Notes under the pieces: generated by a model
Seen by the model: the letters and a program-made list of their open reading frames with translations, nothing else
What the model was told of the DNA's origin: nothing
Databases searched by the model: none
Source of the DNA: Thermodesulfobacteriota bacterium
GTDB lineage: Bacteria > Desulfobacterota_D > UBA1144 > Nemesobacterales > UBA2774
Direction of reading: 5' to 3'
Assembly (NCBI GenBank): GCA_965216785.1
Contig: OZ244197.1
Span: 2,880,001-2,944,000 of the forward strand
Length of the DNA stretch: 64,000 nucleotides
Position numbers and translations under genes: made by a program
Shown: positions 3,634 through 21,232 of the stretch, one piece after another
Layout of the letters: each line of letters begins with the position of its first letter
How positions within the stretch are numbered: position 1 is the stretch's first letter

Positions 3634-3710
3634 TCAACGTATCTCCTATCATAACTTTTCTTATATTGCTTTAATCCTAGCACTCTAATATCTATTAATT
3701 AACCTCATGA

Positions 3711-4445: not shown

Positions 4446-4473
4446 ACTATTCCTCTCATTACACTTATATTAT

Positions 4474-4899: not shown

Positions 4900-4902
4900 T
4901 CA

Positions 4903-5154
4903 TTAACCTCCCGCCACCGGGGGAATGAAGATGACACGATCCCCCGAGCATAGAGCTGTATCCATACTCTGGAACTCTTCGTTAATCGACACTCTGATGC
5001 TCCTTGAATCTTGAGGGAAACCGTATTCCCCCGAAAGGTCTTTATATAGCTCCTGGGGAGTCGCGGCGAAAGATTCTATATCTTCCTCTCTCTTCCCGGC
5101 TTTCTCTCTCAACATTGCATAGTAATGAATATTTAAGACTTTGGGTTTTTCCAT
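4903..5154 (-). CDS. moaD: Molybdopterin synthase sulfur carrier
   Basis: 83 aa, YYAMLRE, C-terminal IPPVAGG. Confidence 0.95.
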   Translation of the reverse strand: MEKPKVLNIHYYAMLREKAGKREEDIESFAATPQELYKDLSGEYGFPQDSRSIRVSINEEFQSMDTALCSGDRVIFIPPVAGG

Positions 5155-6341
5155 TACCGTTCTCCTTTATCTAAATTGGATTTTGCTGTTTTAAATTCCT
5201 CTTCATTGTTAATATTTTCGAGATTTTCACGCTCTGTCTGTTCGACCGTTTCCACCGGTGAGTGCATGAGAATGTCTCTTGGGGACATGTTGCCCGCTGC
5301 GAGATTCTGAAGGAGCCTTAGTCTTATTTTAGGCTCATAGATAGAGCAAAGAGGCTCTGGGAGATCGCCCTTAGCGCTACTGAAACAGGTGGCTATTTTC
5401 AAGGGATTTCGGTTCTTTAAAAGCCTCTCAATAGTCTCTCGGTCCACATAAGGCAGATCGCAGGCAACCACAAGCCAGGCCGCTTGAGGATGAGCGTGCA
5501 TTGCGGAGAGAATTCCCGAAAGTGGGCCCAACCCGATGAATACGTCATGTATCTGAGGCAGTTTCCCCAAACTCTGAGCTTTCCACTGATCCTTTTTGGA
5601 CGATATGAATACTTTGCCGCAAACCTCAGACAAAAGCCTGTAAACCACCTCTGCCTGAGGCCGTCCGTGATAATCGATCATGGCCTTGTCCCTATCCATT
5701 CGCCGGCTGTCGCCACCTGTGAGCACAAGACCGTAAAGAGGCGTCTCTGAAGCTAAAGCGGCAAGATACTCTCTGATAAAATCTACGATACCAAAAACGT
5801 CATCCCGATGAAAATAGGGCGCGTCTACGGGAAGTCTGTCAACTCTTTGTTCTGAGCCGATAAAGCCGATTACGTTTTCTATATCACCGCAAGATACGGA
5901 GCTTAGAATCTCCTTCTTATCATCTATTAATAAGAGCTTATTAACGAGCGTTTTCTTAAAACCTTCTATGAACACTAAATCACAGGAGTTAAACGCGGCC
6001 TGTATCTCTAATGGCGTAGGCACGCCCCTATGAATATTGGCCGTATGGCGGGAATCTGAGATAGAGATGCGGGAAGCCCCGCTCGACCAGGCTCTTTGCG
6101 TATCCTTCCCCTCTTTATCTATCTCAAACTGATGTATGCCGTATTTTATATAGCCAATATCGAACTCTTGGCTTAAGCTCTCGATAAGGCGCGTAATCAG
6201 AGTCGTTTTCCCCGTATTTGAATAACCGCAGATCGAGATTTCGAAGGGATGAAATATATACCCGTCCTGAGCTACAGCGCTCTGGCCGCTTGAATCGCGT
6301 TTGATATCCGTAATCCCGGTAATGTTTTTAAAATCTTCCAT
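5154..6341 (-). CDS. mobAB: MobB-MobA fusion (Mo-bisPGD biosynthesis)
   Basis: N-terminal P-loop GYSNTGKTTL...DKEGKDT...EGFK (MobB); C-terminal LVLTGGDSRRM, GPLSGI, VACDLP (MobA). Confidence 0.88.
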   Translation of the reverse strand: MEDFKNITGITDIKRDSSGQSAVAQDGYIFHPFEISICGYSNTGKTTLITRLIESLSQEFDIGYIKYGIHQFEIDKEGKDTQRAWSSGASRISISDSRHTANIHRGVPTPLEIQAAFNSCDLVFIEGFKKTLVNKLLLIDDKKEILSSVSCGDIENVIGFIGSEQRVDRLPVDAPYFHRDDVFGIVDFIREYLAALASETPLYGLVLTGGDSRRMDRDKAMIDYHGRPQAEVVYRLLSEVCGKVFISSKKDQWKAQSLGKLPQIHDVFIGLGPLSGILSAMHAHPQAAWLVVACDLPYVDRETIERLLKNRNPLKIATCFSSAKGDLPEPLCSIYEPKIRLRLLQNLAAGNMSPRDILMHSPVETVEQTERENLENINNEEEFKTAKSNLDKGER

Positions 6342-6364
6342 AGCTATGGACTCTGTCGCTAAAA

Positions 6365-7321
6365 TCAGCCTCCTATCTTATACATATCCTGCTCTACGCG
6401 CTCGATCCTTCTATACGGTTTCATCTTAAGTAGCTCGTTTAATTTACTTTTAAATTCCTGAGGCTCTACATCACGTATGTATACGCCGTCCTCCGACATC
6501 AGGCAGGCCCTTAAAAATCCGTCCGCAGAGAGCCTCCATCTGGAGCAATTACGGCAGAATGGAAGGGTCTCGGAGGCAATAAATCCGATACTGGCCCCTG
6601 TTGCAGTCTTGAAGTTAAAAGAGGTCGAATCACTCTCTGACTGCTCGCTTATTAGCTCCACCTGACTCGATATTTTCTGAATTGCTTGCGCAGCGGAGAC
6701 AAAGAGCTTATCTTTAGAGCCGCCCGCCTGCCCAATGCTCATGAGCTCAAGGAACCTCACCTGAATTCCGTGATCGGCAGAAAATTTTATAAAATCCAAT
6801 ATCTCGTGCTCGTTAATTCCACTCATGAGCACTGTATTGATCTTCACATGAAACCCAAGCTGTTTGGCGCGCAAAACCGAATCCAGAACCTTATCGAAGT
6901 AGTCTCTTCTCGCGATACGGTTAAAAGTATCCTTGGTGAGCGAATCAAGACTTATGTTGATGTGCTTACAGTTGGTATCATTTAAGAAGTCGAGCTCTTT
7001 TGTTAAATTCCAGCCGTTTGTGGTAAGCCCGAGCTTCTCAAGCGGAAGTGAAGAGAGGCGAAGGACAATATCCCTGAAATCCTCACGTAAAGTAGGCTCT
7101 CCGCCCGTTATACGTATCTGCTCCAATCCGAAATTAACTAAAGTAGAGCATACGCTCTCGATCTCATCCGGGCGAAGCCAACGTGATGAATCCATAAATA
7201 CAGGATTTAGCGGCATACAGTAAACACAGCGGAAATTGCACGCATCCAGAAGAGAAACCCTGAGTTTTCTGATCCTTCTTCCATAGTTGTCAATTAGCGG
7301 TACGATAGGTTTAACGTTCAT
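6365..7321 (-). CDS. moaA: GTP 3',8-cyclase
   Basis: CNFRCVYC, RITGGEP, FCRNCSRWRLSADG..CL, terminal IGG. ATG at 7321 overlaps the moeA stop (ATGA). Confidence 0.93.
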   Translation of the reverse strand: MNVKPIVPLIDNYGRRIRKLRVSLLDACNFRCVYCMPLNPVFMDSSRWLRPDEIESVCSTLVNFGLEQIRITGGEPTLREDFRDIVLRLSSLPLEKLGLTTNGWNLTKELDFLNDTNCKHINISLDSLTKDTFNRIARRDYFDKVLDSVLRAKQLGFHVKINTVLMSGINEHEILDFIKFSADHGIQVRFLELMSIGQAGGSKDKLFVSAAQAIQKISSQVELISEQSESDSTSFNFKTATGASIGFIASETLPFCRNCSRWRLSADGFLRACLMSEDGVYIRDVEPQEFKSKLNELLKMKPYRRIERVEQDMYKIGG

Positions 7322-8535
7322 AGCGGTTGTCCTCTCCACAGGTATAGTGGAAATGCTTTTCCTTTTTCGAAATAATTTTTTTCTTCTGAAAGCTCGATGA
7401 ACCCAGAGCTGTAGGCAAGGGACGTGAAATCCCCCGAGCCGTTAAGCGCGACAGGTGCACCAGTAATTGTCCCGTTCTCACGGTATGTAATTTTGACGGG
7501 CAAGAAGTATGTAAGATCTTTTTCAAATATGAAATCTTCTTCCAAAACTGCATATGGCATGTGTGCCTTAGTATCGATACCTAAAGATTTCCAGAGTGAG
7601 GGCAGTACGTAGCGGTGCAGGCAAACGAGAGCTGAATTGGGGTTTCCAGGGAGCCCGAAAACTCTTTTCCCTTCTTGAGTACAGCCAAACCAAAGAGGTT
7701 TTCCGGGGCGCTGTTTGACCCTGTGAAACAGCTCTTCCACACCAAGGTGTTTTAACGCTCCGGGGATAAAATCGAACTTACCCTTTGAGACCCCTCCGGA
7801 AATAATAACCACGTCCGACGTATCGAGTATTTTCCCAAGTGAGGATAAAATCTCATCCTCACTATCGTGAAGGTGATAACTGTTAATATCGTTAAACTCG
7901 TATGCTGAAAGTGATGTCATGAGAGCATAAGAATTAGACTGTCTTATCTGATAATCGGCGGGTTTTTGATCGACGTCGACAAGCTCGTCCCCGGTGCTGA
8001 CAACAGATATGGGAGGACGCTTGGACACTTTTATGTCCGCACACCCGACTGCAGCTGCGATTGCGGCATATGGGGCGCTTAGCACACATCCTCCGTTATT
8101 GATTACTTCACCCCCTCTACAATCAGTACCCATGCGGTGGACGTTCTGCATTTTTTCCAAAGTGAGAGAGCCATCAATACCCGCTATGCCGTCCTTTATG
8201 CACACGTCTTCGTATCTGATTACGGCGTCTGAGCCCTTGGGGAGCGGCGCTCCTGTCATAACTTCGATACAGTTCTCCGGATTTTTAAGAGCCATCTGAG
8301 GCTGCCCGGCTTTTTGGCATCCTTCAATCGGATAGTCCGTCCGTCCGCTCTCCCTGCTTTGTACGGAGACGGCAATACCGTCCATAGCTGCGCGGTTAAA
8401 CGGAGGATAATCCCTGTCGGCAACGAGGGGCTGCCTGAGCACTTCGCCCTGTATACTGCAGATTTCGGTAAGGGTTGAATCTGCCGGTAACGATCGGCTG
8501 AGAATAATTTCTTCGGCTTTTTTAACTGATATCAT
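7318..8535 (-). CDS. moeA: Molybdopterin molybdotransferase
   Basis: PPFNRAAMDG, MTGAPLP, STGDELV, SGGVSKG, QRPGKP, LPGNP. Confidence 0.95.
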   Translation of the reverse strand: MISVKKAEEIILSRSLPADSTLTEICSIQGEVLRQPLVADRDYPPFNRAAMDGIAVSVQSRESGRTDYPIEGCQKAGQPQMALKNPENCIEVMTGAPLPKGSDAVIRYEDVCIKDGIAGIDGSLTLEKMQNVHRMGTDCRGGEVINNGGCVLSAPYAAIAAAVGCADIKVSKRPPISVVSTGDELVDVDQKPADYQIRQSNSYALMTSLSAYEFNDINSYHLHDSEDEILSSLGKILDTSDVVIISGGVSKGKFDFIPGALKHLGVEELFHRVKQRPGKPLWFGCTQEGKRVFGLPGNPNSALVCLHRYVLPSLWKSLGIDTKAHMPYAVLEEDFIFEKDLTYFLPVKITYRENGTITGAPVALNGSGDFTSLAYSSGFIELSEEKNYFEKGKAFPLYLWRGQPL

Positions 8536-8700: not shown

Positions 8701-9264
8701 TCATAACGGTTCCACTGTTATTGCTTTCCCTGTTTGGCTTACACAAATGTAGGCGCACTTTCCGCACCCTATGCATTTATCTCCGTCTATTACCGGATAC
8801 TTATCGTCGTGCATGGATATTGCCGACACACCGGGTGGACACGTGTTGAAACAGTAATCACAGTACTGTCCCTGCTTTACCAAACAGTGTTTTAAATCGA
8901 CGTGCGCGGCGCCGATTCTAAGCTCTTTATCGTCATTTTCTCTAAGTGCTAATGGCTCACAGGACTTTATGCAAGGCATGTCCTCACAGAACCTGCAGGG
9001 GGCATAGTACGGGTCTATAAATGGGGTTCCGGCGTTAACACCACCTGTGAGCAGATCAACCAAGTGCACCGCATCGTGCGGGCAGGCTTTCCTGCAGTCC
9101 CCGCAGCGCGTGCACGTAATGAGGAACTGCTCCTCACGGAGCGCCCCCGGAGGTCTTATCGCCGGGCGTTTAAACTTGTGCTTTAGCCCCTTATCTATAA
9201 GCTTGGTGCTTTCTTTAAAACCGAACTTTAAAAATCCTCTCCTGCTCAGCTGCTCAGATTGCAT
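8701..9264 (-). CDS. napF: NapF-like polyferredoxin
   Basis: SRRGFL motif with no hydrophobic h-region (typical of NapF), RPPGA, CTRCGDCRKACP and CIGCGKCAYIC clusters. Confidence 0.7.
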   Translation of the reverse strand: MQSEQLSRRGFLKFGFKESTKLIDKGLKHKFKRPAIRPPGALREEQFLITCTRCGDCRKACPHDAVHLVDLLTGGVNAGTPFIDPYYAPCRFCEDMPCIKSCEPLALRENDDKELRIGAAHVDLKHCLVKQGQYCDYCFNTCPPGVSAISMHDDKYPVIDGDKCIGCGKCAYICVSQTGKAITVEPL

Positions 9265-9267
9265 ATA

Positions 9268-10989
9268 CTAGTAGCTCCCCCTCATCGCCATAGGCTGGAA
9301 TACAAACCATATCCCTAAAATCCCGATCGCGAGTAAAAGCGCATAATGGGCATAATAAAGACTCCTGCCCTTTGCAGCTTCAGATCCGAACAATTTATCG
9401 GAAATGCTAAAAGACCTTATCTTTAAAATTTTTGCCGAATAGTAAAATCCCAAACAGATGGCAATTAACTGCAGAGCCATCATTGTACCGTGCCCGGCAA
9501 GCGGCCCAGGGGTGTAGCCCTTGAGACCCAGCAGGTTCCATCCCCAACCAAACGGATCGTTAAAAAGCGGGAACAGATATGTGACCTCATCCAGTATATG
9601 CATGAGGTTATGACCTATGTGATAACCCAGCACAACCGGCACCAGGGCATAAATCATCATCATGGAAATACCCTTTTTGCCAAACCTGTGCCCGATGAGC
9701 TTTTCAAATAGGTAGAAAACCGCAAACGAGCCGGCGAGTATTGTAGTGAGCAGTATGGAAAAAACGGACAGATAAGAGAGATCGAGCGCCCTGCCTATTC
9801 CCTCCGTCCATTCCACCCAGATGTTAGTCATAGTAAGCCCATGGAAAAAAGTAAGCACCAGTATAACGTAAATAAGAATCGATTCATCCATCCGGTACGT
9901 CGATGTGTTTTGTAAGTCGTATGCAGGAGGACGAAGCTTCAGGGTCAGATTGTCTTTATCGCAAGAGCGGACGCATTCGGTGCAAAGGGTGCAGTAAGTA
10001 TTCTGGCTTAGTTTGAACGGAACTTCAAGCGTGGGGCATGGAGTGGAATAAGTGCCCCCTCTAACACAGTCTATGGTTTTACAGTCTTTACATACCTGCG
10101 CGTCTTTTTGCCTAAGCTCCAAGGGTGAGAATTGAGCGTAAATACCGCTGATACGGCCTATTGGGCATGCGTAGCGGCAAAAAGAGCGTTTTTCAAATAT
10201 CAGTGCCGACAGTACCGCAATAACCACGACAGAAAGCCCGAGCCAGGCGGTCAGATATGAGTTCTGTGTAAGCTCCACACCAAGCTCAAGCCAGGTGAAT
10301 ATGATGAAAAACACAACTGCCAGATATGTATTTCTAAGGAGCTTTGGCCATTTAAGGTTTAGAGTCTGCACTTTTCCCTTAACCCTGTAGAACCAGCCGA
10401 ACTGAAATAGGTTAGAGAAAAAATCCCACGGGCACGCTGCGCAGAATATCTTTCCCCCGAACGCGACGAAAAATATAAGCAGTGTCCACCAAAATAGCCA
10501 CGTAAACGGAGCGGCCAGGTTTGCCCTTGTGCGGCCGAAGAACCCCGTAGCAAGCACAAGGATAAAAAGTAAGGCAGGTATGAGACGGAGTGAGAATGAA
10601 AAATACGGTGACTTAACCGCCTTCTCCAGAAGCGGGAGCCTGAACAAATCGAACCTTTTCTCTGAAACGGGCTTTACGGCTTTTGCGGCAACCCATACGC
10701 CCACAACAACAAAGAACAGGATCGAAAGCCAAGCGCCGGCGGCGCCCCCGTACATTCCGTGGTGGGCTCCGTGGTCCATGTTCATACCGTGCGCAGGCAT
10801 CTGAACCTCGGTATGGGCTGAGCTTTGCATATCGTGGCCCATTTCCCCGTGCCCTTCGTGAGTATCCATATTCATTTCGTGCCCAGAGCCCTGATCCACA
10901 CCCATACTATGATCACTTTCGGGCATCTCATGCTGGATACTTTTATGATCGTCGTGATTCATGTTTTTATCTTGCATCTCATCTGGCAT
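9268..10989 (-). CDS. Membrane 4Fe-4S protein (NapH/CcoG/NosR-superfamily-like) with His/Met-rich N-terminus
   Basis: FCAACP and FCRYACP motifs, CKDCKTIDC and CTLCTECVRSC ferredoxin motifs, many TM helices; 13 His and 13 Met in the first 80 aa. Confidence 0.75.
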   Translation of the reverse strand: MPDEMQDKNMNHDDHKSIQHEMPESDHSMGVDQGSGHEMNMDTHEGHGEMGHDMQSSAHTEVQMPAHGMNMDHGAHHGMYGGAAGAWLSILFFVVVGVWVAAKAVKPVSEKRFDLFRLPLLEKAVKSPYFSFSLRLIPALLFILVLATGFFGRTRANLAAPFTWLFWWTLLIFFVAFGGKIFCAACPWDFFSNLFQFGWFYRVKGKVQTLNLKWPKLLRNTYLAVVFFIIFTWLELGVELTQNSYLTAWLGLSVVVIAVLSALIFEKRSFCRYACPIGRISGIYAQFSPLELRQKDAQVCKDCKTIDCVRGGTYSTPCPTLEVPFKLSQNTYCTLCTECVRSCDKDNLTLKLRPPAYDLQNTSTYRMDESILIYVILVLTFFHGLTMTNIWVEWTEGIGRALDLSYLSVFSILLTTILAGSFAVFYLFEKLIGHRFGKKGISMMMIYALVPVVLGYHIGHNLMHILDEVTYLFPLFNDPFGWGWNLLGLKGYTPGPLAGHGTMMALQLIAICLGFYYSAKILKIRSFSISDKLFGSEAAKGRSLYYAHYALLLAIGILGIWFVFQPMAMRGSY

Positions 10990-10991
10990 GA

Positions 10992-11597
10992 CTAAGCACC
11001 TGCCGTACCCACCTGTTTCCCCGGGGCCTGCTCTTTATTCTTTTGCAGCCTTGAAGTAACGATCTTTAGCATAATTACGACTGCGAAAAACAGGGCGATA
11101 AAGATATATAGCGAGTATTTCTGGAAAAATGTTTGAGTGATCTGAAACGGCATCTCGAGCCTTACGGGAGCACCGTTCTTGTCGGCAAACTCAACATTCA
11201 ACACCAAATCGTCCTGCTCCTTAATTTGCTCCTGTATTACGTAAATGCTTTCCTGCTCGGGTGGGATAAACCCTGTTTTATATACTGTTTTGCCGTGGGA
11301 CAGCACCTCGAAGCTAGCCTCATTTTGAAACACTTTATCTGCCTCGATGTCGTAGATAAATATGTATAGTCTCACATCATCCGAGGATTCGACCTGCTCC
11401 AGATTAAGCCCCTGGAAGTTGTAAACCGTAACGAAGAGCTCATACTCAGGCGTCTCTTTTATAAATTCCAGATAAGGAACCTGGGGATAGTTCTCAAAAT
11501 ACCCGTAATGGGGAAGCCCCTTATAGTGATGGGCTCCCGCACTGATTGCGGGGAGAATGAATATTGCGATTAAAACCATAAATTTAAGCAGTTTCAT
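10992..11597 (-). CDS. Hypothetical exported protein with C-terminal membrane anchor
   Basis: Signal peptide ending AGA, beta-rich domain, C-terminal TM helix; overlaps the napH stop and abuts the next gene. Confidence 0.7.
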   Translation of the reverse strand: MKLLKFMVLIAIFILPAISAGAHHYKGLPHYGYFENYPQVPYLEFIKETPEYELFVTVYNFQGLNLEQVESSDDVRLYIFIYDIEADKVFQNEASFEVLSHGKTVYKTGFIPPEQESIYVIQEQIKEQDDLVLNVEFADKNGAPVRLEMPFQITQTFFQKYSLYIFIALFFAVVIMLKIVTSRLQKNKEQAPGKQVGTAGA

Positions 11598-12582
11598 GTT
11601 GTGCTACTTCCTCTAATTTTTCGTATCCGGGATTTGGCTTTTTATAAAGCGGATTTAAGCCGAGCGCTATGTTTGTCGTAGGGCAGTTATCGACGCATTT
11701 GAGACACAGATGACAGGAGTAGAGATCTCCCTCTTTAGGGAATAGTTCCACCGGGCATACTTTATTGCAAAGAGTGCAGCCGCTCGGGCATTTCGAGGCT
11801 TCGACTCTGAGTTTTACAACACTGAACTTTCCTAGATAGGACAATAAAAACCCGGTCGGACATACGGAGTTGCAAAACTGTCCGGGCACAAGTCCAATGT
11901 CCAGCACTAGTAGCGCGATTATGAAATAAAACCCAACATTGAATGTGGAAAATACAAAATATGAAAACATCTCGTGCGTAAATGAGATATAAGGCAGAAT
12001 GAAGTGCCAGACCCAGGCGCCGAATAGGTAGGAAAGCACCAGCCCTCCCCAAAATACTATCACCCTCGTTTTCCTCTCAAGTCTGACTGACATAAGAGGG
12101 ATACCGACCCTGAGCATTATTGAGCGTATATAACCCGTCACGCCGTACAGCACAGTCATGGGACACAACCATGAACAGAACACCCGTCCGAGCAAAAGCA
12201 CCACAACAAAAGGTATGAGCCCCCCGATCAGGTACTTGAGCGGGAATTTCACAGAGTTTATGAGCTCTGAGATTAACCCAAGCGGGTCTGAGAACGGTAC
12301 GCCCAATATCGTAAAGGCCCAGAGGGAGCCGTTATTGGAAGTTGCCGCCGTCACGGGATCATCCCACATAGAGTAAAACCAATCCAGCGCTGCATAAGTG
12401 CTGCCCATCATAGGACCGTAGCTCAGACCCACTAGATGAGAGTGGTTATAAGAGATTTTGTTGTTAGCGTACCAACTGCTGAGCGGAACAAATATAAAAA
12501 ACAGTAATACGCTTAATAGAATAGCGTATCTTAGATACTGGTATTTAGACCTTTTTATTCTAAGTCTTTTTGATCTTTTCAT
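11584..12582 (-). CDS. napH: NapH-like quinol dehydrogenase membrane subunit (copy 1)
   Basis: SDPLG, GRVFCSWLCP, FCNSVCPTG, CTLCNKVCP, CHLCLKCVDNCP. Start taken at ATG 12582, after the napG stop. Confidence 0.8.
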   Translation of the reverse strand: MKRSKRLRIKRSKYQYLRYAILLSVLLFFIFVPLSSWYANNKISYNHSHLVGLSYGPMMGSTYAALDWFYSMWDDPVTAATSNNGSLWAFTILGVPFSDPLGLISELINSVKFPLKYLIGGLIPFVVVLLLGRVFCSWLCPMTVLYGVTGYIRSIMLRVGIPLMSVRLERKTRVIVFWGGLVLSYLFGAWVWHFILPYISFTHEMFSYFVFSTFNVGFYFIIALLVLDIGLVPGQFCNSVCPTGFLLSYLGKFSVVKLRVEASKCPSGCTLCNKVCPVELFPKEGDLYSCHLCLKCVDNCPTTNIALGLNPLYKKPNPGYEKLEEVAQHETA

Positions 12583-12587
12583 TCCAG

Positions 12588-13160
12588 CTACACCGGACGA
12601 ACGCGTATGGCCTGCGGCATATGTATACACGCCTGCTCACAAAGTCCGCACCCTACGCACTCATCTTCATTCACAATCGGCTGCTCGTACAAGCCAACGC
12701 TAAGAGCCTTGCCAGGAAGCGGACACGCTCTGTAGCAAACACCGCATGTACGCCCGTGATATGAAAAGCAAAGATCCTTGTCAACATAGGCAATGCCCAT
12801 TTTAACTTCTTTTCTCACGACGTCCATATCACGGGAAATCGTCGTCAAAGCTCCGGTCGGGCAAACTTCCGTACAACGCATACAGAGTGTACATCCCTTA
12901 CTTCTGGGAACTACAATGGGCGTGTGTACGTTTTCAAACCCGTACTCAAAACCAGCCATCTGTATACAGTTGTTAGGACAAGCGGTCGCACACTTAAAAC
13001 ACCCTATGCACTGCTCTTTGAACTCAGCTTCCTTAAGAGCCCCTGGAGGTCTCAGGAATCTTATCTTTGCCCTAATCTTATCCCGCGTGGCTATGTAGAA
13101 AACCGGCGTTAGGAAAAATAATGCTGAGATTAGGGCAAAGAAAAACCTTCTTCTGTTCAT
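12588..13160 (-). CDS. napG: NapG/MauM-like periplasmic polyferredoxin (copy 1)
   Basis: MNRRRFF Tat-like leader, LRPPGA, four Fe-S motifs (CIGCFKCATACP, CTLCMRCTEVCP, CFS..CGVCYRACP, CVGCGLCEQAC). Confidence 0.85.
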   Translation of the reverse strand: MNRRRFFFALISALFFLTPVFYIATRDKIRAKIRFLRPPGALKEAEFKEQCIGCFKCATACPNNCIQMAGFEYGFENVHTPIVVPRSKGCTLCMRCTEVCPTGALTTISRDMDVVRKEVKMGIAYVDKDLCFSYHGRTCGVCYRACPLPGKALSVGLYEQPIVNEDECVGCGLCEQACIHMPQAIRVRPV

Positions 13161-13162
13161 TT

Positions 13163-13948
13163 TCAGTCTTGTAAACTTCTAAGGTAAGCCACAATGTTGT
13201 TAATGTCGGTCTCGTCAATGTTGGCAAGACCTCTTCCGTGACCAAAAGGCTTCATAGCCGTTCCGGCACGGCCTACCTGAATTGTTTTCTTGATGTAATC
13301 ATCCGACGCTACATCTAGAAAACCGGGGAGACCAATACCCGGACCCGAACCCCCGTCCGCATAACCCCCGCCGTTAATTCCGTGACAGGACGCGCAGAAG
13401 TTACGAAAAGCTTTTTGCCCTTCCTTAGGGTCACCGTCTATAGTAGCCGTCCAATCAACGTGGTAGTCTCTGAATGTAGCATAATCGTTTTGCCAGGATC
13501 TTATATAAACCACGAGATCATCGACGTTATCAGCTACGTTAGGCATTACCTTGTAACCTATCATCGCCGTTCCCGGCCGCCCGTTTAGGATTGTATCCTT
13601 GATATACGTGTCATTGGCAAGCCCTAAGAAGTCCGGGCTGTTGAGCCTCGGCGCTAGCCCTGCCCTTCCTGCCCCGTCGGGCTGGTGGCACGCAACACAG
13701 ATTTGGTTAAAGAGCACTTTCCCTCTTTCTACCTGCTCCTCATCCAACTCGACTGTTTCGGGATGTGGCTCGGGCATGACATCATCACCTGTTGCCTTGG
13801 CGTGCTCATTTTTAGTTTCCTCTTCAGATACCGACTGCTTGGCCGCATTGGCCTTTGCAACAATATCTGTCGATACATCTGTGCCCCCCTGCTCCCCGCA
13901 GCCAATCAACGCCACGATGGCTATTAGTAGAAGTGTAATATTTTTCAT
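13163..13948 (-). CDS. Lipoprotein diheme class I cytochrome c
   Basis: Lipobox ALIG-C; two CxxCH (CVACH, CASCH), each followed by a GRxGTAM distal-Met motif. Confidence 0.85.
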   Translation of the reverse strand: MKNITLLLIAIVALIGCGEQGGTDVSTDIVAKANAAKQSVSEEETKNEHAKATGDDVMPEPHPETVELDEEQVERGKVLFNQICVACHQPDGAGRAGLAPRLNSPDFLGLANDTYIKDTILNGRPGTAMIGYKVMPNVADNVDDLVVYIRSWQNDYATFRDYHVDWTATIDGDPKEGQKAFRNFCASCHGINGGGYADGGSGPGIGLPGFLDVASDDYIKKTIQVGRAGTAMKPFGHGRGLANIDETDINNIVAYLRSLQD

Positions 13949-13962
13949 CGTCCATTATCTCC

Positions 13963-16701
13963 TTATGATATCTTTTCAATTCTTGCTGCCAGCTTCTTAA
14001 AGTCGACCTGCCCTGAGACCGGATCATACGCTCTGTGGGATACTCCGTTAACTAGCCATTTATTCTTTTCAGGATCGGCTGAGTCCGCAACGGAGAGGTT
14101 CCACGGGCTAAATACATACCCTTTAGGAACCGTATTCCTGGCCGGCTTAACCACTGAATCAAGCCCTATGGATACTCTGCCCTCGTATTCTCCGCGGCGT
14201 GTAATGAGCTTTACCCACTCACCGTCTTTAACTCCAAGCTCCTTAGCGTCATCAGGGTGCATCTCAACATACTGCTCAGGAACCAACTTTCTCGTTGTAC
14301 CAGAGCGTATGGTTTTCGCGGTGTGGAAGTGTTCGTATACAACACCGAGCCCAAGCCAGAAGGGGTACTTATCATCAGGAACATCGCTCCATTTCTTCCC
14401 GAGGTAATCAAAGTCGGGAAGCTCTGGTGTAAGCGCCATGTCGCGCGCCTTCACTAGAAGCTCTTGATTGTCTATCGCGTAGAAATCTTTCTCTACACCC
14501 AACTTCATCAGCTCATCCGTAATCTCCTTACGCTGTGAGTAATCCTGATCGCAGAAATGCATGTGGAGCTTTCCGTCTTTTTGTCTGAACTCCCCGTACG
14601 GTTTGCCGGGCCAATCGCCTTCTTGCCCCATGTATCTGCGTTTGGTTCCGCCGTTCTTAGCAATCTCGGCTGTGGGTGCAGGCCACTGGATTCCCCTAAG
14701 GTCTCTTATTTGATCATAGAGTCCTTTTCCGGTTTCCTTCTCCACTTCGAGCATTCCGGTAAGATCGGCGTCCGTTCCCTTCGAGGCAATTACAAAGTCG
14801 CGGAACACCTCTTCAGGATCATAGAACCCGTTTTCCTTTCTCTGATACGGGAATATCTTCTCACTATCGAGTCCGAGCTTGTCGGCGATGAGTTTTCCTT
14901 TATCTATTACCATGTCCATGTCGGGACGCGTTCCCTTGATTGGGTTTGCGGTACCGTCACAGACAAAGAGCCTTCTTTCCGACTGAATATATATACCGCC
15001 TACCCATTCTCCCCACGTTGCGGCAGGCAAGATCACGTCTGAATAGAGGTTATTAGGAGCATGGCGGTAGATTTCCTGTGACACGGTGAAACACCTCGTA
15101 AGAGCGGGGCGCACCAGATGGTAGCTGTCCGGAAGGTCAATGTGGGTAGCGTAGATTAAAAACATAGCGTGCACGTCGCCTTTTTGAGCGCGCTCCATCA
15201 TACCGATCGCCATACCCTGGTTGTTCTGTGTCGCCACTTTATCGAGCCTCTCCTGAGGTACTCCCCAGAGATCGGCAATTTTATGACGGTGGGCTTCGTC
15301 GTTGATCCCTATATTAAACGGCAGCCTGCCGGTCAGGCCTCCTGTCAGACGCTCACCCATAGCGTTTGGCTGTCCTGTCTGAGAGTGCGCTCCGCAGCCT
15401 GGTCTTCCTATGTTGCCGGTAAGAGCCATAAGGTTCACAAGTCCGACAGTGTTGTTCTGTCCGTGTATGTGCTGGTTGTAGCCGATACCCCAGAATGTGA
15501 GTACTCCGCCTTTGCCGTTCTTCCTACCTTTTACAGAGGCATCCGCCCACAGAGCGGCTATTTTATATATTTCCTCAGCAGGAACCATGGTCATGGGCTC
15601 TACGTCTTTTGGATTAAATTTAGCCTGTACTTTCTCAATATAGTCTTCCCAACCGGTGACGCTCTTCTTTAAGAATTCGTAGTCAACGGCTTCAGGGTGT
15701 TTCTCCAAGATAGCGTAGGCTATTGCGTTATGTATGGAGATGTCACCGTTTATTGTCTGAAAGTGGAAAGAATTACCAGGGTTGATCTCCTCTAACCCCT
15801 GAACAGAACCCGTTCTTCGGGGGTCTACTATTAAGGTGGGGATGTTATTTATTTTTTTATGGTCCGCCACCCTCCAGAAAAGGATCGGATGAGCTCCCCT
15901 CGGGTTATGGCCCCAGAAGGTGATCATGTCGGCCATTTCTATATCGTCGTAACACGTGGCCGGAGTATCCGAGCCGAATGTTTTGAAGTATCCCGTAACG
16001 GCAGAGGTCATGCACATCCTTGCGTTTGCCTCAATCGTATTTGACCCCAGAACTCCCTTCATGAATATATTCTCAAGATACTGCCCTTCAAGAGTCAACT
16101 GGCCCGATCCGTAAAGCCCTACGGAGTTACCCCCTTTTTCTTTTACTATATTAGCGACCTGCTCAGAGATCAGCTCTTCCGCCTCATCCCATGAAGCTTC
16201 CCGGAAGTCGCTTGCTTTAAAGCTGCCCTTTGTTTTTGATACGTGCCCCTTAAGAGGATCTGACATATCTTTTCTGATTAAAGGTTTCGTGAGACGGTCT
16301 ACGTATATCGCTTCCGCCGACGCGAGCCCCTTGATACACTGAAGGCCCTTATTAGTAGGATGGTCTTTGTCGGGAATGACTCCGACGATTTTACCTTTTT
16401 TAACTTGCAGGATAGTGCCGCAGCCGACTCCACAGTAAGGACACGCGGCCAAAAGATCGTTTTTATATTCAGTATTGGTAAGCTCATACTCCTCGGTCTC
16501 CTGAGAATGAGCTATTTTCCCGTTACCGCCGGTAAAGAGACCTAAGGCTGTCGCAGCAGCCCCGACCCCGGCAGATGTTTTTATAAAATTTCTCCGCCCA
16601 ACATCGGCTAGTTCCGAAGCTTCGGGAGCCTCGGTTCGAAGCTCATGTTTCTTAGCCTCGTCAATAGGTAATTTTACTTCTTTTGATTTGTTTCCCTTCA
16701 T
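13963..16701 (-). CDS. Tat-signal Mo-bisPGD oxidoreductase, nitrate reductase family (NapA/NasA/NarB clade)
   Basis: GRRNFIK plus hydrophobic stretch; CPYCGVGCG...CIKG 4Fe-4S; NARMCMTSA (Cys Mo ligand); GQPNAMGER; EHFHT...VEMHPDDA C-terminal domain; SD AAGGAGG. Confidence 0.88.
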   Translation of the reverse strand: MKGNKSKEVKLPIDEAKKHELRTEAPEASELADVGRRNFIKTSAGVGAAATALGLFTGGNGKIAHSQETEEYELTNTEYKNDLLAACPYCGVGCGTILQVKKGKIVGVIPDKDHPTNKGLQCIKGLASAEAIYVDRLTKPLIRKDMSDPLKGHVSKTKGSFKASDFREASWDEAEELISEQVANIVKEKGGNSVGLYGSGQLTLEGQYLENIFMKGVLGSNTIEANARMCMTSAVTGYFKTFGSDTPATCYDDIEMADMITFWGHNPRGAHPILFWRVADHKKINNIPTLIVDPRRTGSVQGLEEINPGNSFHFQTINGDISIHNAIAYAILEKHPEAVDYEFLKKSVTGWEDYIEKVQAKFNPKDVEPMTMVPAEEIYKIAALWADASVKGRKNGKGGVLTFWGIGYNQHIHGQNNTVGLVNLMALTGNIGRPGCGAHSQTGQPNAMGERLTGGLTGRLPFNIGINDEAHRHKIADLWGVPQERLDKVATQNNQGMAIGMMERAQKGDVHAMFLIYATHIDLPDSYHLVRPALTRCFTVSQEIYRHAPNNLYSDVILPAATWGEWVGGIYIQSERRLFVCDGTANPIKGTRPDMDMVIDKGKLIADKLGLDSEKIFPYQRKENGFYDPEEVFRDFVIASKGTDADLTGMLEVEKETGKGLYDQIRDLRGIQWPAPTAEIAKNGGTKRRYMGQEGDWPGKPYGEFRQKDGKLHMHFCDQDYSQRKEITDELMKLGVEKDFYAIDNQELLVKARDMALTPELPDFDYLGKKWSDVPDDKYPFWLGLGVVYEHFHTAKTIRSGTTRKLVPEQYVEMHPDDAKELGVKDGEWVKLITRRGEYEGRVSIGLDSVVKPARNTVPKGYVFSPWNLSVADSADPEKNKWLVNGVSHRAYDPVSGQVDFKKLAARIEKIS

Positions 16702-16750
16702 GGCATTCGGCCTCCTTTGATCTACTCATTTCTGTAGAATATTTAAGCAT

Positions 16751-16772
16751 ATATTTGACTTCTGTCAAATAT
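16751..16772. promoter_or_regulatory. CRP/FNR-family-like operator palindrome
   Basis: ATATTTGAC-TTCT-GTCAAATAT, perfect 9-bp arms with a TTGAC-N4-GTCAA core, between the divergent reductase and Rrf2 genes. Confidence 0.65.
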
Positions 16773-16865
16773 CCTGATATACTTTTAGTGTTTTGTTAAT
16801 ATTAAAGATGACTTACAGATCATCAAGTCTTCTATAGATATTATACCTTAATAAATTCAAATAAA

Positions 16866-17318
16866 ATGTTTAGCAAAAAAGTAGCTTACGCAATAAGGTG
16901 TTTGGTTTATTTATCTAATCAAAACGATCCTGTTTTGATTAGGGAAATTTCCGATGAAACGGGTATGCCGCGTCCGTTTTTAGCTAAGATTGTAAATACT
17001 CTGACCAGGAAAGGTTTTCTCCACTCACAGCGCGGCGTTGGGGGCGGCATATCTCTTTCGAGAAAACCAGAGCTAATAAGCATTTGCGATGTTTGCATCG
17101 CGCTTGATGACCCTTTATTAGATGACCAGTGCATCGTGGGACTGCCCGACTGCTCCGCGGAGAACGCCTGCGCCCTTCACGGCTTTTGGTCGAAACAAAA
17201 ACAGGCGATTATAGAATTTTTGACAATTAACACAATAGCCACGTTAGCAGTCACAAATAAAAAAGCGAAAAAGGATCTTTTAAAAGAGGTAAAACTTCAT
17301 AATGCTATTTCCGAGTAG
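16866..17318 (+). CDS. Rrf2 family transcriptional regulator with putative Fe-S ligands
   Basis: YAIRCLVYL, HTH, SQRGVGGG wing, CIVGLPDCSAENACALH (Cx6Cx5CxxH). Confidence 0.9.
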   Translation: MFSKKVAYAIRCLVYLSNQNDPVLIREISDETGMPRPFLAKIVNTLTRKGFLHSQRGVGGGISLSRKPELISICDVCIALDDPLLDDQCIVGLPDCSAENACALHGFWSKQKQAIIEFLTINTIATLAVTNKKAKKDLLKEVKLHNAISE

Positions 17319-17430
17319 CCGCTTTATGTTTTAAAGTGTTTTAAAGTATAATTTAGCACTCCGAAGTTATCTGCCAAGAAGAATGCCGCAACTAAAGACA
17401 CTAAACTTTTATTATCAGAGGAGGGGCGCC

Positions 17431-18945
17431 TTGCGATATCTCAAACCAAAATCCGATTTACCTTTACGTCAGTATTTTTCGTTTGCCGCGGTATTTATTG
17501 TAGTTGTTGCCGCCGCTTTTTGTATGTATTTAATTGATACAACTGAAGCGTTAGCTCAAGACTCTCAGGGTTTTTCCCAAACAATAAAGGACCACACAAC
17601 ACTTGGGATTAACGTCAGACTTCGGAACGAGTACTGGAATACATTTGAGAAAAAGGGGACCGACACTGAAAGATCCTATAACTTCTTTCTCATAAGAGCA
17701 AGGGCTTTTGCAGATTTTAAATGGCAAAAATACAGAATCCATATACTCACCCAGGGAGTAAAAGCATTTGACTTCCCAAGAAACGGGGCATTCGGTCCGG
17801 GTCCCCTATACTTCAACGCGAGTGACCGGAAAACCGGTCCCGGCAACTTTCAGTTTGTAGAAGCCTTTTTCCAGTACGATGATCCCGAAGGGTTTTATTT
17901 TACGGGAGGGCGTATTCCCATTCGTGAAGGAGCCGAGGTTCTGTATAAGGACAACCCAAAGTTAAATTGGGTTATCAAAAAGAGGCTTTCAGAGCGCCTC
18001 ATCGGAACATGGGACTGGACGAACATAGGAAGAAGATTCGACGGGGCAAGCCTTGGGTATCACAACTCCACATTTGATTTTAACGCGTTCGGGTCGTGGG
18101 TAACTTTCGGCGGATTTGATTTTGATGACGGTTACTGGAAAGACCTGGATAATGTTGTGGTTGTTGGCGGATCGTTCACCATAAAAGAAGGTGTGCTCTT
18201 GGATAATACCCAGTTTAAGCTATTTAACTATTACTATTTCGATAACAGAAATGTCGCGGTTGATTTTGCCGGTGATGATTTGAAGATAGACACTATAGGG
18301 GTAAACATGGTCGGCGCTTATCCCGCGGGACCGGGGGAAATCGATCTTATGTTGTGGGGTGCGCTTCAGTTCGGGAGCTTCGGCGACCTAGACCAAAAAG
18401 CCGGAGCTTTTATAGGAGAGGTAGGATACCAGCTTACAGAAGTTCCATGGAAACCATGGCTTAGAGCGGGTATAGCATATGCCTCGGGAGACGGCGACCC
18501 GAATGACGGAGATAACGGCACTTTCTTCAATATGGTCCCTACGAATCACAAATTTTACGGCTATGTAGACGCAAACGCTTTTAGTAACCTCGTGGATACC
18601 TATTTGCAGTTCTTTTTATCCCCCCACAAGAGAATCAACCTGGCCGTAGACGGCCATCTGTTTTGGCTGGCCTCGGATGAAGAGGTCTGGATCGGCGGAT
18701 CGGGACCTTTTAACGACGCGGTTTTCGGTTACGCGTTCAGAAACCCGGTCGAAGGGAATAATATAGAGCAAGACCTTGGCGGCGAGATCGACATTGGCGC
18801 AAATATAGTCGCCTTGGACTTCCTGTCGTTTCAAGTCGGATACTCTCACTTCTTTGGTGGAGACGGCGTGAGCGTCGTATTTGATAGGGAAGATAACCTG
18901 GATTGGTTCTATGCTCAGTGCATAATCAACTTCCAGACAAAATAA
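17431..18945 (+). CDS. Alginate-export (AlgE-like) family outer-membrane beta-barrel
   Basis: Signal peptide (ALA-Q), RLRNEY, RRFDG, YASGDGDP..D, NHKFYGYVD, DLGGEID, amphipathic strands. TTG start chosen because GAGGAGG precedes it. Confidence 0.75.
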   Translation: MRYLKPKSDLPLRQYFSFAAVFIVVVAAAFCMYLIDTTEALAQDSQGFSQTIKDHTTLGINVRLRNEYWNTFEKKGTDTERSYNFFLIRARAFADFKWQKYRIHILTQGVKAFDFPRNGAFGPGPLYFNASDRKTGPGNFQFVEAFFQYDDPEGFYFTGGRIPIREGAEVLYKDNPKLNWVIKKRLSERLIGTWDWTNIGRRFDGASLGYHNSTFDFNAFGSWVTFGGFDFDDGYWKDLDNVVVVGGSFTIKEGVLLDNTQFKLFNYYYFDNRNVAVDFAGDDLKIDTIGVNMVGAYPAGPGEIDLMLWGALQFGSFGDLDQKAGAFIGEVGYQLTEVPWKPWLRAGIAYASGDGDPNDGDNGTFFNMVPTNHKFYGYVDANAFSNLVDTYLQFFLSPHKRINLAVDGHLFWLASDEEVWIGGSGPFNDAVFGYAFRNPVEGNNIEQDLGGEIDIGANIVALDFLSFQVGYSHFFGGDGVSVVFDREDNLDWFYAQCIINFQTK

Positions 18946-18985
18946 TAGGCGGCTCGTATTTCTTAATGACAGCCCCAAGAGAAGT

Positions 18986-20368
18986 CTAAAACCTCGGATC
19001 GGGATAGTAGAACTTAAACGAGAGCGGGTCGAAATCTCCTGCGGGAGACTCGATAAAGAATTCATAGTGAGTGCGCGGCTCGTAGTTAAAATCCATCCCG
19101 TAGGTACTGCGGTTAATTATAGATATAGGGTGCGTCACAGTCTCATATTCTTCCCTATGAAGCTCCTTTCCTTCTCTCCACTGGATTAGCGTAAGGGGCT
19201 TTGTGTATATTTTATCACCGTCTTTTATGTGAACGTAAAGAGACAGATCGCCGGGCTTATTTTCGTAAGCGGCTCTTCCGAACACTGAGTAAAATACATT
19301 TAGCTCCTTACCGCTTCGGTCTTTTGTAGTAGACTCGCCCTCAAAGAAGGTCTTCTCTAGAACGATATTATGATAATCCTCTTTATCGCTCCACGAGTCT
19401 GCCATGGAGCTCTCAGCCGGCAATAAAAGAAGCAGTGAGACCAAAGCCACGCTTATGAACTTTATCCTTCCGGTAGGGCAATGATCCAGACAGCGCGAGC
19501 ACATATCGCACCTGGGGTCGTTGATCCTGGCCATCGGCGAGAGACCGAGCCAGCACTCTTCCATACACTGCATACACCCCTTTGGACAGCTGAGATCAGA
19601 ATCGTGTCTGAGGCGGAAGACCTTGAGCTTCCCGACTACGCTTAGAAAAATGCCTGTGGGGCATAAATACCTGCAGAAATAACCGGGCTTAGACAACTCA
19701 AATACAACTAAACCCAGAAACAGCGCTCCCCAAAGAGTCCAGCCACCCCATAGTAAAAAATCCGAGACCGAATGCTGAAATATCGCGGGCGGAAGTAGGT
19801 ACTGCAGCACAAGCGGATTTGTGATGACGAGCAAGAAGAGCACTATCATATACACTACCCTACCCTTTTTTTTAAACATCGTTCCGGGAGGAGCCTGCGC
19901 CTTAATTTTTCTTCCAAAAAACTTTCTCTGGATTTTGAGGTTTGTGGATACAATAAGGGACATCGGGCATATATATCCGCAGAATGCCCGTCCGAACAAT
20001 AAAGCGAGACCAAGTGCGATCAGTAATGTCGTAAGGAAAACCCAGTTCCAGGAAGCGGGCTCTAGAACGCTGTTCACAGCCTGCACCGTAATAGTGAGCG
20101 GCTCTGTGAATATTACGGGGAAAAATTTAAACGTGTACGGGCCGCCGGACACATTTTCGTAAATAGGATCGAGCGAGGACCTGAGCCAGTGATCGAACTG
20201 AATAAGAAAATCCCTGCTCCACTGTGTCGTAACAGCGGGAGAGGTGGGGTATGGATAGGGGTCCTGCCTGAATGTTCTGATCAGCTGGAACAGCGGGCTT
20301 ATGAAGAGGATCAATATAATAAATATCTGCAGAGTGCGTCTTACCCATGGGAGTGTTTTATGAGGCAT
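18986..20368 (-). CDS. napH: NapH-like membrane subunit (copy 2) with C-terminal extra domain
   Basis: GRAFCGYICP, FCRYLCPTG, CMQCMEEC, CDMCSRCLDHCP, then a hydrophobic segment and a ~135-aa soluble domain. ATG 20368 is preceded by AGGAGG. Confidence 0.78.
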   Translation of the reverse strand: MPHKTLPWVRRTLQIFIILILFISPLFQLIRTFRQDPYPYPTSPAVTTQWSRDFLIQFDHWLRSSLDPIYENVSGGPYTFKFFPVIFTEPLTITVQAVNSVLEPASWNWVFLTTLLIALGLALLFGRAFCGYICPMSLIVSTNLKIQRKFFGRKIKAQAPPGTMFKKKGRVVYMIVLFLLVITNPLVLQYLLPPAIFQHSVSDFLLWGGWTLWGALFLGLVVFELSKPGYFCRYLCPTGIFLSVVGKLKVFRLRHDSDLSCPKGCMQCMEECWLGLSPMARINDPRCDMCSRCLDHCPTGRIKFISVALVSLLLLLPAESSMADSWSDKEDYHNIVLEKTFFEGESTTKDRSGKELNVFYSVFGRAAYENKPGDLSLYVHIKDGDKIYTKPLTLIQWREGKELHREEYETVTHPISIINRSTYGMDFNYEPRTHYEFFIESPAGDFDPLSFKFYYPDPRF

Positions 20369-20963
20369 AATTTTCCTCCTTTGGCAAGACGTATATCGCG
20401 GTCGGGGTTTGCGGGCAGCGCTCTTCGCACCTGCCGCACCCGATGCAGTGGTCTTCATGCACGACGGGCTTTGCCCTTGGGATAAGAGTAATGGCGCTTC
20501 CTTTCAGAGGGCAGGCGTCGTGGCAAATCCCGCATATCCTGCCGTTATAGGAAAGACAATTTGTCTCGAGCACTACAGCCGTTCCCATATCTACTTTTTC
20601 GCTGATCTCCTGAAGATCGCGTTTGATGGGCGAGAGAGCGCCAGAAGGACACACCTGAGTGCAGTTCATGCACAGATTGCATGACCTGATCCTCGTATTA
20701 AGAAACGGGGTTCCGGCGAGCCGCTCGTTCTCTGTAAAGCTGAAAAAGCGTATGCACCCGGCCTGGCACACATTGGCGCAGGCGCGGCACCTGATGCATT
20801 CCTTTACGAATTCGCGCTCGGCTTTAGCGCCCGGGGGGCGGACGTACCTGTGCGCAAGCGCTGAATCTGGGAAGAAAAAATTAAACAACCGGAAGAACTG
20901 GAAAGTGAAACTTACCAGGAGAAATGAAATGAACCATAAAAACTGGTTTCTTGTTATCTTCAA
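20358..20963 (-). CDS. napG: NapG/MauM-like polyferredoxin (copy 2)
   Basis: VRPPGA, CIRCRACANVC, CNLCMNCTQVCP, CGICHDACP, CIGCGRCEERCP; TTG start with AAGGAG. Confidence 0.82.
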   Translation of the reverse strand: MKITRNQFLWFISFLLVSFTFQFFRLFNFFFPDSALAHRYVRPPGAKAEREFVKECIRCRACANVCQAGCIRFFSFTENERLAGTPFLNTRIRSCNLCMNCTQVCPSGALSPIKRDLQEISEKVDMGTAVVLETNCLSYNGRICGICHDACPLKGSAITLIPRAKPVVHEDHCIGCGRCEERCPQTPTAIYVLPKEENYAS

Positions 20964-21156: not shown

Positions 21157-21232
21157 TGGCTCCGGAGGAGGGATTCGAACCCCCGACCTAGTGATTAACA
21201 GTCACCCGCTCTGCCAGCTGAGCTACTCCGGA
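21157..21232 (-). tRNA. tRNA-Asn(GTT)
   Basis: TCCGGAGTAGCTCAG...GTGACTGTTAATCAC...GGTTCGAATCC...TCCGGAGCCA; cloverleaf, CCA encoded. Confidence 0.97.

What the first reader, a model, noticed from the sequence alone, without database searches (positions are those of the whole stretch)
8701..20963. Candidate undescribed periplasmic nitrate (oxyanion) reductase system lacking NapB, NapC and NapD
Seen: a tightly coupled operon (gaps of 14 nt or less) reading Mo-enzyme > lipoprotein diheme cytochrome c > NapG > NapH > exported unknown protein > His/Met membrane polyferredoxin > NapF, then the Moco genes. Divergently lie Rrf2 and an outer-membrane barrel, and beyond them a second NapG-NapH pair. 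Known: canonical Nap operons use NapA with NapD and usually NapB, with or without NapC; NasA/NarB enzymes are cytoplasmic and lack Tat signals. Inference: a distinct respiratory module in which an assimilatory-type catalytic subunit is exported and wired quinol > NapGH > membrane-tethered cytochrome > Mo enzyme, with its own porin and cofactor supply.
Basis: partly seen in the sequence, partly recalled or inferred. Interest (0 to 1): 0.88.

Follow-up and report, generated by a model that had tools for sequence, protein, structure and literature searches.

The report
Third branch of nitrate-reductase-like enzymes
This gene cluster encodes a molybdenum enzyme, likely exported from the cell, from a widespread and strongly conserved lineage that lies apart from the two known related nitrate reductases (NapA and Nas); it likely reduces nitrate for respiration using a different cytochrome and without the usual chaperone, which would mean a nitrate-respiring system that databases mislabel.

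Summary
The operon is real. The Mo enzyme is about 33% identical to NapA and Nas and scores far under their cut-offs. It belongs to a family that is 60-86% identical across many phyla and forms its own branch; nesting in NapA is rejected (p=0.012) and nesting in Nas only borderline (p=0.047). The nitrate-reductase core is kept, but the pocket is rewired in all 240 members checked. Cytochrome c, NapG and NapH are in 46 of 46 long loci. NapB and NapD were not found in the host, and all 12 NapD hits in 50 carrier genomes sit beside a separate NapA. Corrections: the enzyme is not Nas-type; NapC is present in 51 of 80 loci of the other sub-branch; the porin, Rrf2 and His/Met tract are local. Best reading: a respiratory periplasmic nitrate reductase (0.62). 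NarX/NarL-like genes flank it in one lineage, but 23 of 50 carriers showed no other nitrogen-oxide marker. The scan found this family before on other DNA (six notes). Ten paper searches found no description.

The parts
13963..16701 (-). Mo-bisPGD catalytic subunit, 912 aa, Tat-type signal; [4Fe-4S] ligands C87/C90/C94/C122, K124, Mo ligand C230
13163..13948 (-). Dihaem class I cytochrome c, lipobox-like LIGC, invariant M129 and M232; 2 to 6 haems in relatives
12588..13160 (-). NapG-like ferredoxin
   Evidence: 131 bits, under the cut-off of 269; 46 of 46 loci
11584..12630 (-). NapH-like membrane quinol dehydrogenase (likely start 12582)
   Evidence: 105 bits, under the cut-off of 234; 46 of 46 loci
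10992..11597 (-). Exported, C-terminally anchored beta-sandwich protein with invariant His-His at the predicted mature N-terminus; YtkA-like
   Evidence: 43 of 46 loci by this query, with a related form in 2 of the other 3
9268..10989 (-). Membrane polyferredoxin of the NapH/CcoG kind with invariant membrane His (H383, H457, H460, H464); His/Met tract local
   Evidence: 39 of 46 loci
8701..9264 (-). NapF/NapG-like ferredoxin, RR motif without a hydrophobic stretch
2725..8535 (-). Moco genes moeA, moaA, mobB-mobA fusion, moaD, moaE, tauE-type exporter, moaC-mog fusion
1442..2641 (-). NnrS-family membrane protein, 83 nt after moaC
16751..16772 (.). Perfect inverted repeat with 9-bp arms between the Mo gene and rrf2; candidate operator; overlaps the best promoter-like site
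   Evidence: the only TTGAC-N4-GTCAA in the genome
16866..17318 (+). Rrf2-family regulator with three Cys and a His
17383..18945 (+). Alginate-export-family outer-membrane barrel
   Evidence: 2 of 46 loci
18986..20458 (-). Second NapH-like protein (likely start 20368) with an extra C-terminal domain of no family
20358..20963 (-). Second NapG-like ferredoxin
21157..21232 (-). tRNA-Asn at the right edge of the cluster; possible integration site

Best explanation
The cluster encodes a molybdenum enzyme of a separate, strongly conserved lineage beside NapA and Nas, which is likely exported by Tat and likely works as a respiratory periplasmic nitrate reductase fed by a His/Met cytochrome c instead of NapB. 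Shown: the gene set, its conservation, the branch, the residues, and no NapB or NapD match in the host. Inferred path: quinol > NapH > NapG (plus NapC in the other sub-branch) > membrane-tethered dihaem cytochrome c > [4Fe-4S] > K124 > Mo-bisPGD bound by C230 > oxygen-atom transfer from nitrate. In this host NrfHA would take the nitrite to ammonium. The His-His protein and the polyferredoxin likely handle metal or help maturation in place of NapD; this is the weakest step.
For: Residues that separate nitrate reductases from formate dehydrogenases are invariant in 240 of 240 members: M231 (Fdh His), T442 (Fdh Arg), D245, Q444, R451, K124. R451 and D245 align with D. desulfuricans Arg354 and Asp155, named as channel residues in PMC13223375. 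The fold is closest to D. desulfuricans NapA (TM 0.73/0.83). NapG, NapH and cytochrome c are in 46 of 46 long loci; NapC-like genes in 51 of 80 loci of the other sub-branch. A NarX-like sensor with NarL lies next to the operon in 15 of 55 loci with room upstream, 13 of them directly divergent, and in L083 and L084. The host has NrfHA and NosZ but no NarG or other NapA. Eight of 50 carriers have a nitrite reductase and no NapA or NarG detected. L126 replaces the Tyr said to be conserved in NapB-binding NapAs (PMC13223375).
Against: No assay, mutant or expression data. The pocket differs in all members: Glu156-equivalent to Thr (Ala in one), Asp355-equivalent to Leu/Phe, a new E450, Met372 (E. 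coli numbering) to Ile, Arg720 to Val/Ile. Fifteen of 50 carriers also keep a separate NapA, directly downstream in L009, which suggests a different job. Twenty-three of 50 carriers show none of NapA, NarG, NrfA, NirS, NirK or NosZ (completeness of these genomes is not given). NrfA is in only 4 of 50 carriers, and in 11 of 40 host relatives that are not carriers, so host NrfA is background. The NarX loci are one lineage (84-99.8% identical), score under the NarX cut-off (396 against 578), and the genomes of L083 and L084 also have NapA and NirS.
Confidence: 0.62

Rival explanations
1. The enzyme reduces another oxyanion (iodate, chlorate, selenate or similar) by the same periplasmic chain; nitrate is a side activity.
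For: Invariant changes in the channel and pterin patches. Coexists with canonical NapA in 15 of 50 carriers. Record titles and source names point mostly to marine or saline settings (my reading of the names). A dihaem cytochrome c peroxidase is near in 6 of 80 loci.
Against: NarX/NarL-like and NapC-like neighbours. Far from AioA (124.8 bits against 359), and it keeps the Cys ligand that IdrA and AioA lack (PMC10100899 table passage). The host's only chlorite-dismutase-family hit is weak and unlinked.
Confidence: 0.2
2. The enzyme runs in the oxidising direction (for example nitrite to nitrate) and passes electrons to the cytochrome c and on to oxygen or nitrous oxide.
For: His/Met class I haems are usually of higher potential than NapB haems (recalled). 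The host has cbb3, caa3-type and NosZ genes. Oxidised C. jejuni NapA can oxidise nitrite, less efficiently (PMC13223375, Mechanism section).
Against: NapGH and NapC are quinol dehydrogenases of reductive chains (established knowledge). Known nitrite oxidoreductases belong to the Nar branch (recalled), and the NarG model gives only 23 bits.
Confidence: 0.08
3. An exported assimilatory (Nas-type) enzyme that scavenges nitrate for biomass; the first reader's ancestry claim.
For: Nas-like motifs CPYCGVGC and GQPNAMG. Nesting in Nas is only borderline rejected (p=0.047). Some sources name members 'ferredoxin-nitrate reductase'.
Against: Outside Nas in three trees. No NirB over the cut-off in the host. 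No nitrite reductase or nitrate transporter among the recurring neighbours listed. Quinol-dehydrogenase partners.
Confidence: 0.05
4. A fast-evolving canonical NapA whose NapD and NapB were missed.
For: Best NCBIfam and PDB matches are NapA. A sister position to NapA is not rejected (p=0.62).
Against: 362.7 bits against a cut-off of 904. Nesting rejected (p=0.012). All 12 NapD hits in carriers belong to another napA. No TorD/NarJ-family match in the host either.
Confidence: 0.05

Closest known systems
Monomeric NapA of Desulfovibrio desulfuricans (PDB 2NAP/2V45; napCMADGH type)
   Same: Closest fold; Cys ligand, Met, Lys, Arg354 and Asp155 equivalents; Tat export; NapGH; no NapB.
   Different: 27% identity in the structural match; about 100 aa longer; no NapD; tandem class I cytochrome c; changed pocket; two extra conserved genes.
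NapC-independent Nap of Campylobacterota (napAGHBFLD; Sulfuricurvum locus L100)
   Same: NapGH as quinol dehydrogenase, NapF-like gene, about 920 aa subunit.
   Different: 32% identity; that operon has NapB and NapD, this one has neither.
Assimilatory Nas/NarB (L102-L104, L107; host-phylum Nas L088-L097)
   Same: CPYCGVGC and GQPNAMG motifs; 30-35% identity.
   Different: No Tat signal in the Nas references, and NirB/NirD or NarK neighbours in three of four; separate branch.
Clade II Nos electron module of Wolinella (NosGH with c-type cytochromes; recalled, not tested)
   Same: NapGH-type pair plus c-type cytochromes feeding a periplasmic reductase.
   Different: The terminal enzyme there is a copper enzyme; this is a wiring analogy only.
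FtrA/P19 with FtrD-type polyferredoxin of iron-uptake systems (FtrD label recalled)
   Same: Weak fold matches of the His-His protein to FetP, FtrA, CrdA and PmoD (E 0.005-0.02), next to a membrane polyferredoxin.
   Different: Generic beta-sandwiches score as well; no permease among the recurring neighbours; a lead only.

Membership tests
Mo-bisPGD (DMSO reductase) superfamily, Nap/Nas/Fdh clade | N-terminal [4Fe-4S] motif, conserved Lys, Cys/Sec Mo ligand, four-domain fold | tested here: met
NapA | Curated model score above cut-off | tested here: not met
   NF010055 362.7 against 904; TIGR01706 328.6 against 930.55. Genuine monomeric NapAs can also fall under it.
NapA | Branches inside the NapA clade | tested here: not met
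   nesting p=0.012; sister position not rejected
NapA | Tat signal peptide | tested here: met
   RR motif in 231 of 239; Pfam TAT just under cut-off; export itself not shown
NapA | napD in the operon (all four operon types in PMC13223375; enzyme degraded without it, PMC10609526 passage) | tested here: not met
NapA | Channel residues Arg354, Asp155, Glu156, Asp355 | tested here: not met
   two of four kept; Glu to Thr, Asp/Glu to Leu/Phe, new E450
NapA | Pterin patches: Gly213, Asn215, Glu218; Arg720, Val721, His724, Trp725, His726 | tested here: not met
   Arg720 to Val/Ile and Trp725 to Phe in 240 of 240; Glu218 kept in 120 of 240; new invariant R268
NapA | Reduces nitrate to nitrite | not testable with these tools
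   needs an assay
Nas/NarB | Cytoplasmic, no export signal | tested here: not met
Nas/NarB | Branches inside Nas; model score above cut-off | tested here: not met
   NasC 258.8 against 1100; trees; nesting p=0.047, borderline
Formate dehydrogenase (FdhF type) | His after the Mo ligand and Arg before GQ | tested here: not met
   M231 and T442 in 240 of 240; the role of these residues is recalled
AioA/IdrA | No amino-acid ligand to Mo | tested here: not met
   C230 invariant; PMC10100899 table passage; no IdrA sequence was in the trees

The most novel reading that the evidence does not exclude
The rewired pocket is tuned to a substrate other than nitrate, such as seawater iodate, or the enzyme oxidises nitrite: a common marine energy metabolism with an unrecognised enzyme, matured without any known chaperone by a His-His protein and a membrane polyferredoxin.
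Probability: 0.25. Interest if true: 0.92.

Novelty: new variant of a known kind. Interest (0 to 1): 0.7.

Why it matters
A 2026 review (PMC13223375) lists three prokaryotic nitrate reductases and four nap operon types, all with napD. This family fits none, yet at least 250 stretches in the species-level genome collection and 349 in metagenomes encode relatives. Sources name members NapA, ferredoxin-nitrate reductase, assimilatory nitrate reductase or selenocysteine dehydrogenase, so surveys of nitrogen cycling would miscount it either way. It would also show how a Tat molybdoenzyme matures without NapD or TorD. Named cultured carriers make it testable: Lentisphaera profundi, Thiogranum longum, Ruegeria sp. 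HKCCD8929 and, at 51% identity, Microaerobacter geothermalis.

Tried and rejected
NrfA pairing as evidence: rejected (4 of 50 carriers; 11 of 40 relatives that are not carriers). A conserved FNR-type box: 7 of 67 upstream regions match with up to one mismatch against 2.65 in shuffles, and the closest locus L015 lacks it; local only. The promoter and terminator scan was at chance level (26 against 25.4; 22 against 18.1). A link to iodate or arsenite enzymes through three long-branch proteins (P0177, P0234, P0266): no AioA model among their hits, and the two I read lack the Mo-ligand Cys. A flavoprotein-bearing bc complex as in earlier notes: the flavoprotein beside the host bc genes is convergent and looks unrelated. 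Microaerobacter as a sole-enzyme test: it also has the subunits of a respiratory nitrate reductase (PMC9119079, whole text). Homology of the napH2 tail to the His-His protein: probability 8%; Atlas hits under 0.9. Expression: no RNA holder listed; run X21 laid nothing. Complex prediction of enzyme with cytochrome was not available, so binding is untested. The test of the family as sister to Nas gave no answer. The careful tree did not finish; the quick tree is reported. Barnum and Coates 2020 on a new chlorate reductase clade: title seen only in a reference list, not held; I recall it concerns the Nar/Pcr branch, unverified.
Full report
Observation. The seven genes run on the minus strand from 16701 to 8701 with gaps of 14 nt or less, followed after 165 nt by the Moco genes, a TauE-type exporter and nnrS. 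Rrf2 and an alginate-export barrel are divergent, and a second napG-napH pair converges on them. An independent run covers 12551-20449 in one contig. A tRNA-Asn lies at 21157-21232. A perfect inverted repeat at 16751-16772 is the only TTGAC-N4-GTCAA in the genome. It may be an Rrf2 or FNR-type operator (labels recalled), but it is not conserved in relatives.

The enzyme. It scores 362.7 bits on the NapA model (cut-off 904) and 258.8 on NasC (cut-off 1100). Identity is 32-35% to five NapA, 30-35% to four Nas and 28-32% to three Fdh references. Close relatives are many: the best 120 hits are 72-85% identical, apart from the protein itself; 250 of 264 pattern hits in the genome collection are relatives, of which 80 were kept. 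Record titles span Verrucomicrobiota, Myxococcota, Bacteroidota, Planctomycetota, Bdellovibrionota, Pseudomonadota and others. Some titles are unreliable: L015 is titled Spirochaetia, but its coordinates match G016, of the host's order. At 50% clustering the family is only a few clusters. In the host phylum 2 of 120 genomes carry it; the other 10 matches are 34-38% identical, and the six I placed group with Nas. This patchiness and an 86% nearest neighbour titled Bdellovibrionota suggest lateral transfer (inference).

Trees. The family is one side of a fully supported branch in a 35-row IQ-TREE quick tree and a 30-row tree rooted on Fdh, and lies outside NapA and Nas in a 142-row FastTree (representatives without the Fe-S motif or under 600 residues were dropped). 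Nesting inside NapA is rejected at p=0.012 and inside Nas at p=0.047. I named these groups after seeing the trees and used the simpler model, so the second result is weak. A sister position to NapA is not rejected (p=0.62). No IdrA or cyanobacterial NarB was included.

Active site. Among 240 members (the top 120 of each of two searches, so two sub-branches), C122, K124, C230, M231, D245, T442, Q444 and R451 are invariant and match NapA and Nas; at M231, D245, T442 and R451 the Fdh references differ. PMC13223375 (parts 1-3 of 5, the main text) names Arg354, Asp155, Glu156 and Asp355 as channel residues and two pterin patches. Here Glu156 becomes Thr, Asp355 becomes Leu or Phe, a Glu appears just before the Arg, and Arg720, kept in all 13 reference rows, becomes Val or Ile while a new invariant Arg (R268) appears in the other pterin patch. 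I infer a compensating swap. The Tyr linked to NapB binding is Leu. The AlphaFold model (pLDDT 81.4) is closest to D. desulfuricans NapA.

Operon. Of 80 genome loci, 46 had room on both sides: cytochrome c 46, napG 46, napH 46, His-His protein 43, polyferredoxin 39, moaA 8, porin 2, Rrf2 0. The cytochrome is one gene with mostly 2 or 4, and up to 6, haem motifs and invariant Met ligands. In 80 metagenome loci found with the L083 protein (best 80 of 349), NapC-like genes occur in 51, at three different positions; only 2 of the 80 genome loci have one. NarX-like sensors occur in 15 of those 80 loci, within one lineage; the partner passes the NarL cut-off, the sensor stays under the NarX cut-off. 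The His-His protein is a beta-sandwich, YtkA-like by features, with weak fold matches to copper- and iron-binding periplasmic proteins among generic hits.

Genome context. The host (92% complete, one contig) gave no match for NapD, NapB or the TorD/NarJ family, none for NarG, NirS or NirK, and no NirB over cut-off. It has NrfHA, NosZ and cbb3. In 50 of the 80 carrier genomes, chosen for long contigs and spread: NapD 12, each within about 0.7 kb of a separate NapA-type gene; NapA 15; NarG 2; NrfA 4; NirS 4; NirK 9; NosZ 11. Eight have a nitrite reductase without NapA or NarG, which favours nitrate reduction. Twenty-three have none of the six enzyme markers, which is neutral at best. NrfA is common in host relatives that lack the family (11 of 40).

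Mechanism. [quoted passage not shown] Gene content, residues and branch are shown. Export, electron path, binding of the cytochrome and substrate are inferred (0.62). Rivals: another oxyanion 0.20, oxidising direction 0.08, assimilation 0.05, disguised NapA 0.05. It works like a NapC-independent Nap but fails the NapA tests for branch, NapD and pocket residues, so I do not file it as NapA.

Literature. Ten searches found no description of this family or operon; subscription journals are mostly not held. Seen: PMC13223375 main text; PMC9119079 whole text; PMC12769810 abstract and two passages; PMC10100899, PMC10609526, PMC10305379 and PMC6850669 passages; PMC12780646 abstract. PMC10100899 notes that Nas and NapA form one family with basal homologues from anaerobes, but the passages seen name no such clade. 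No supplements were opened. The scan noted this family six times on other DNA. Added here: the residue map, the link of NapD to a separate NapA, the NapC and NarX-like neighbours, and the control against NrfA.

Verdict. Real, and a new variant of a known kind; interest 0.70.

Noticed in passing
G000:C1:2714872-2722172 (L206): Clade II-type nosZ cluster without recognisable nosG/nosH among its ORFs; the second napGH pair of the window might serve it, but that pair does not track nosZ in carriers.
   Followed up: partly
G000:C1:2814436-2816371 (L001): nrfH-nrfA; NrfA has five CxxCH motifs and no CxxCK at haem 1 (the CxxCH variant; label recalled).
   Followed up: partly
P0177, P0234, P0266: Tat-bearing 930-960 aa proteins on a long branch next to the family; the two read lack the Mo-ligand Cys and look like inactive derivatives.
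   Followed up: partly
L009:17963-20284: A canonical monomeric NapA directly after the family operon; napD and nirK lie on the same contig (G122:C8).
   Followed up: partly
L079:9954-12281; L135:3136-5475: A DUF255 thioredoxin-domain protein recurs near the operon (6 of 80 genome loci, 22 of 80 metagenome loci); a haemerythrin-like gene in 10 of 80.
   Followed up: no
L026, L032, L035, L040-L042, L044, L046, L050, L055: The second napG-napH pair is inside the operon (napG napG napH napH) in these loci.
   Followed up: partly
L018, L027, L036, L045, L069: The operon is split, rearranged or interrupted by 3-4 kb between the Mo gene and napG.
   Followed up: no
window 265-1425 (+): Radical SAM protein converging on nnrS; resembles haem-synthesis AhbC/AhbD or NirJ proteins (recalled); a homologue lies near the operon in L080.
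   Followed up: no
L104:1-1019: An alginate-export-family barrel also sits beside NarK and a Nas gene in Spirosoma, which fits an anion-channel role for such barrels.
   Followed up: no
G000:C1:170689-176751: Alternative complex III-like genes, including the 974 aa Mo-domain protein of L003; a possible second electron source.
   Followed up: no
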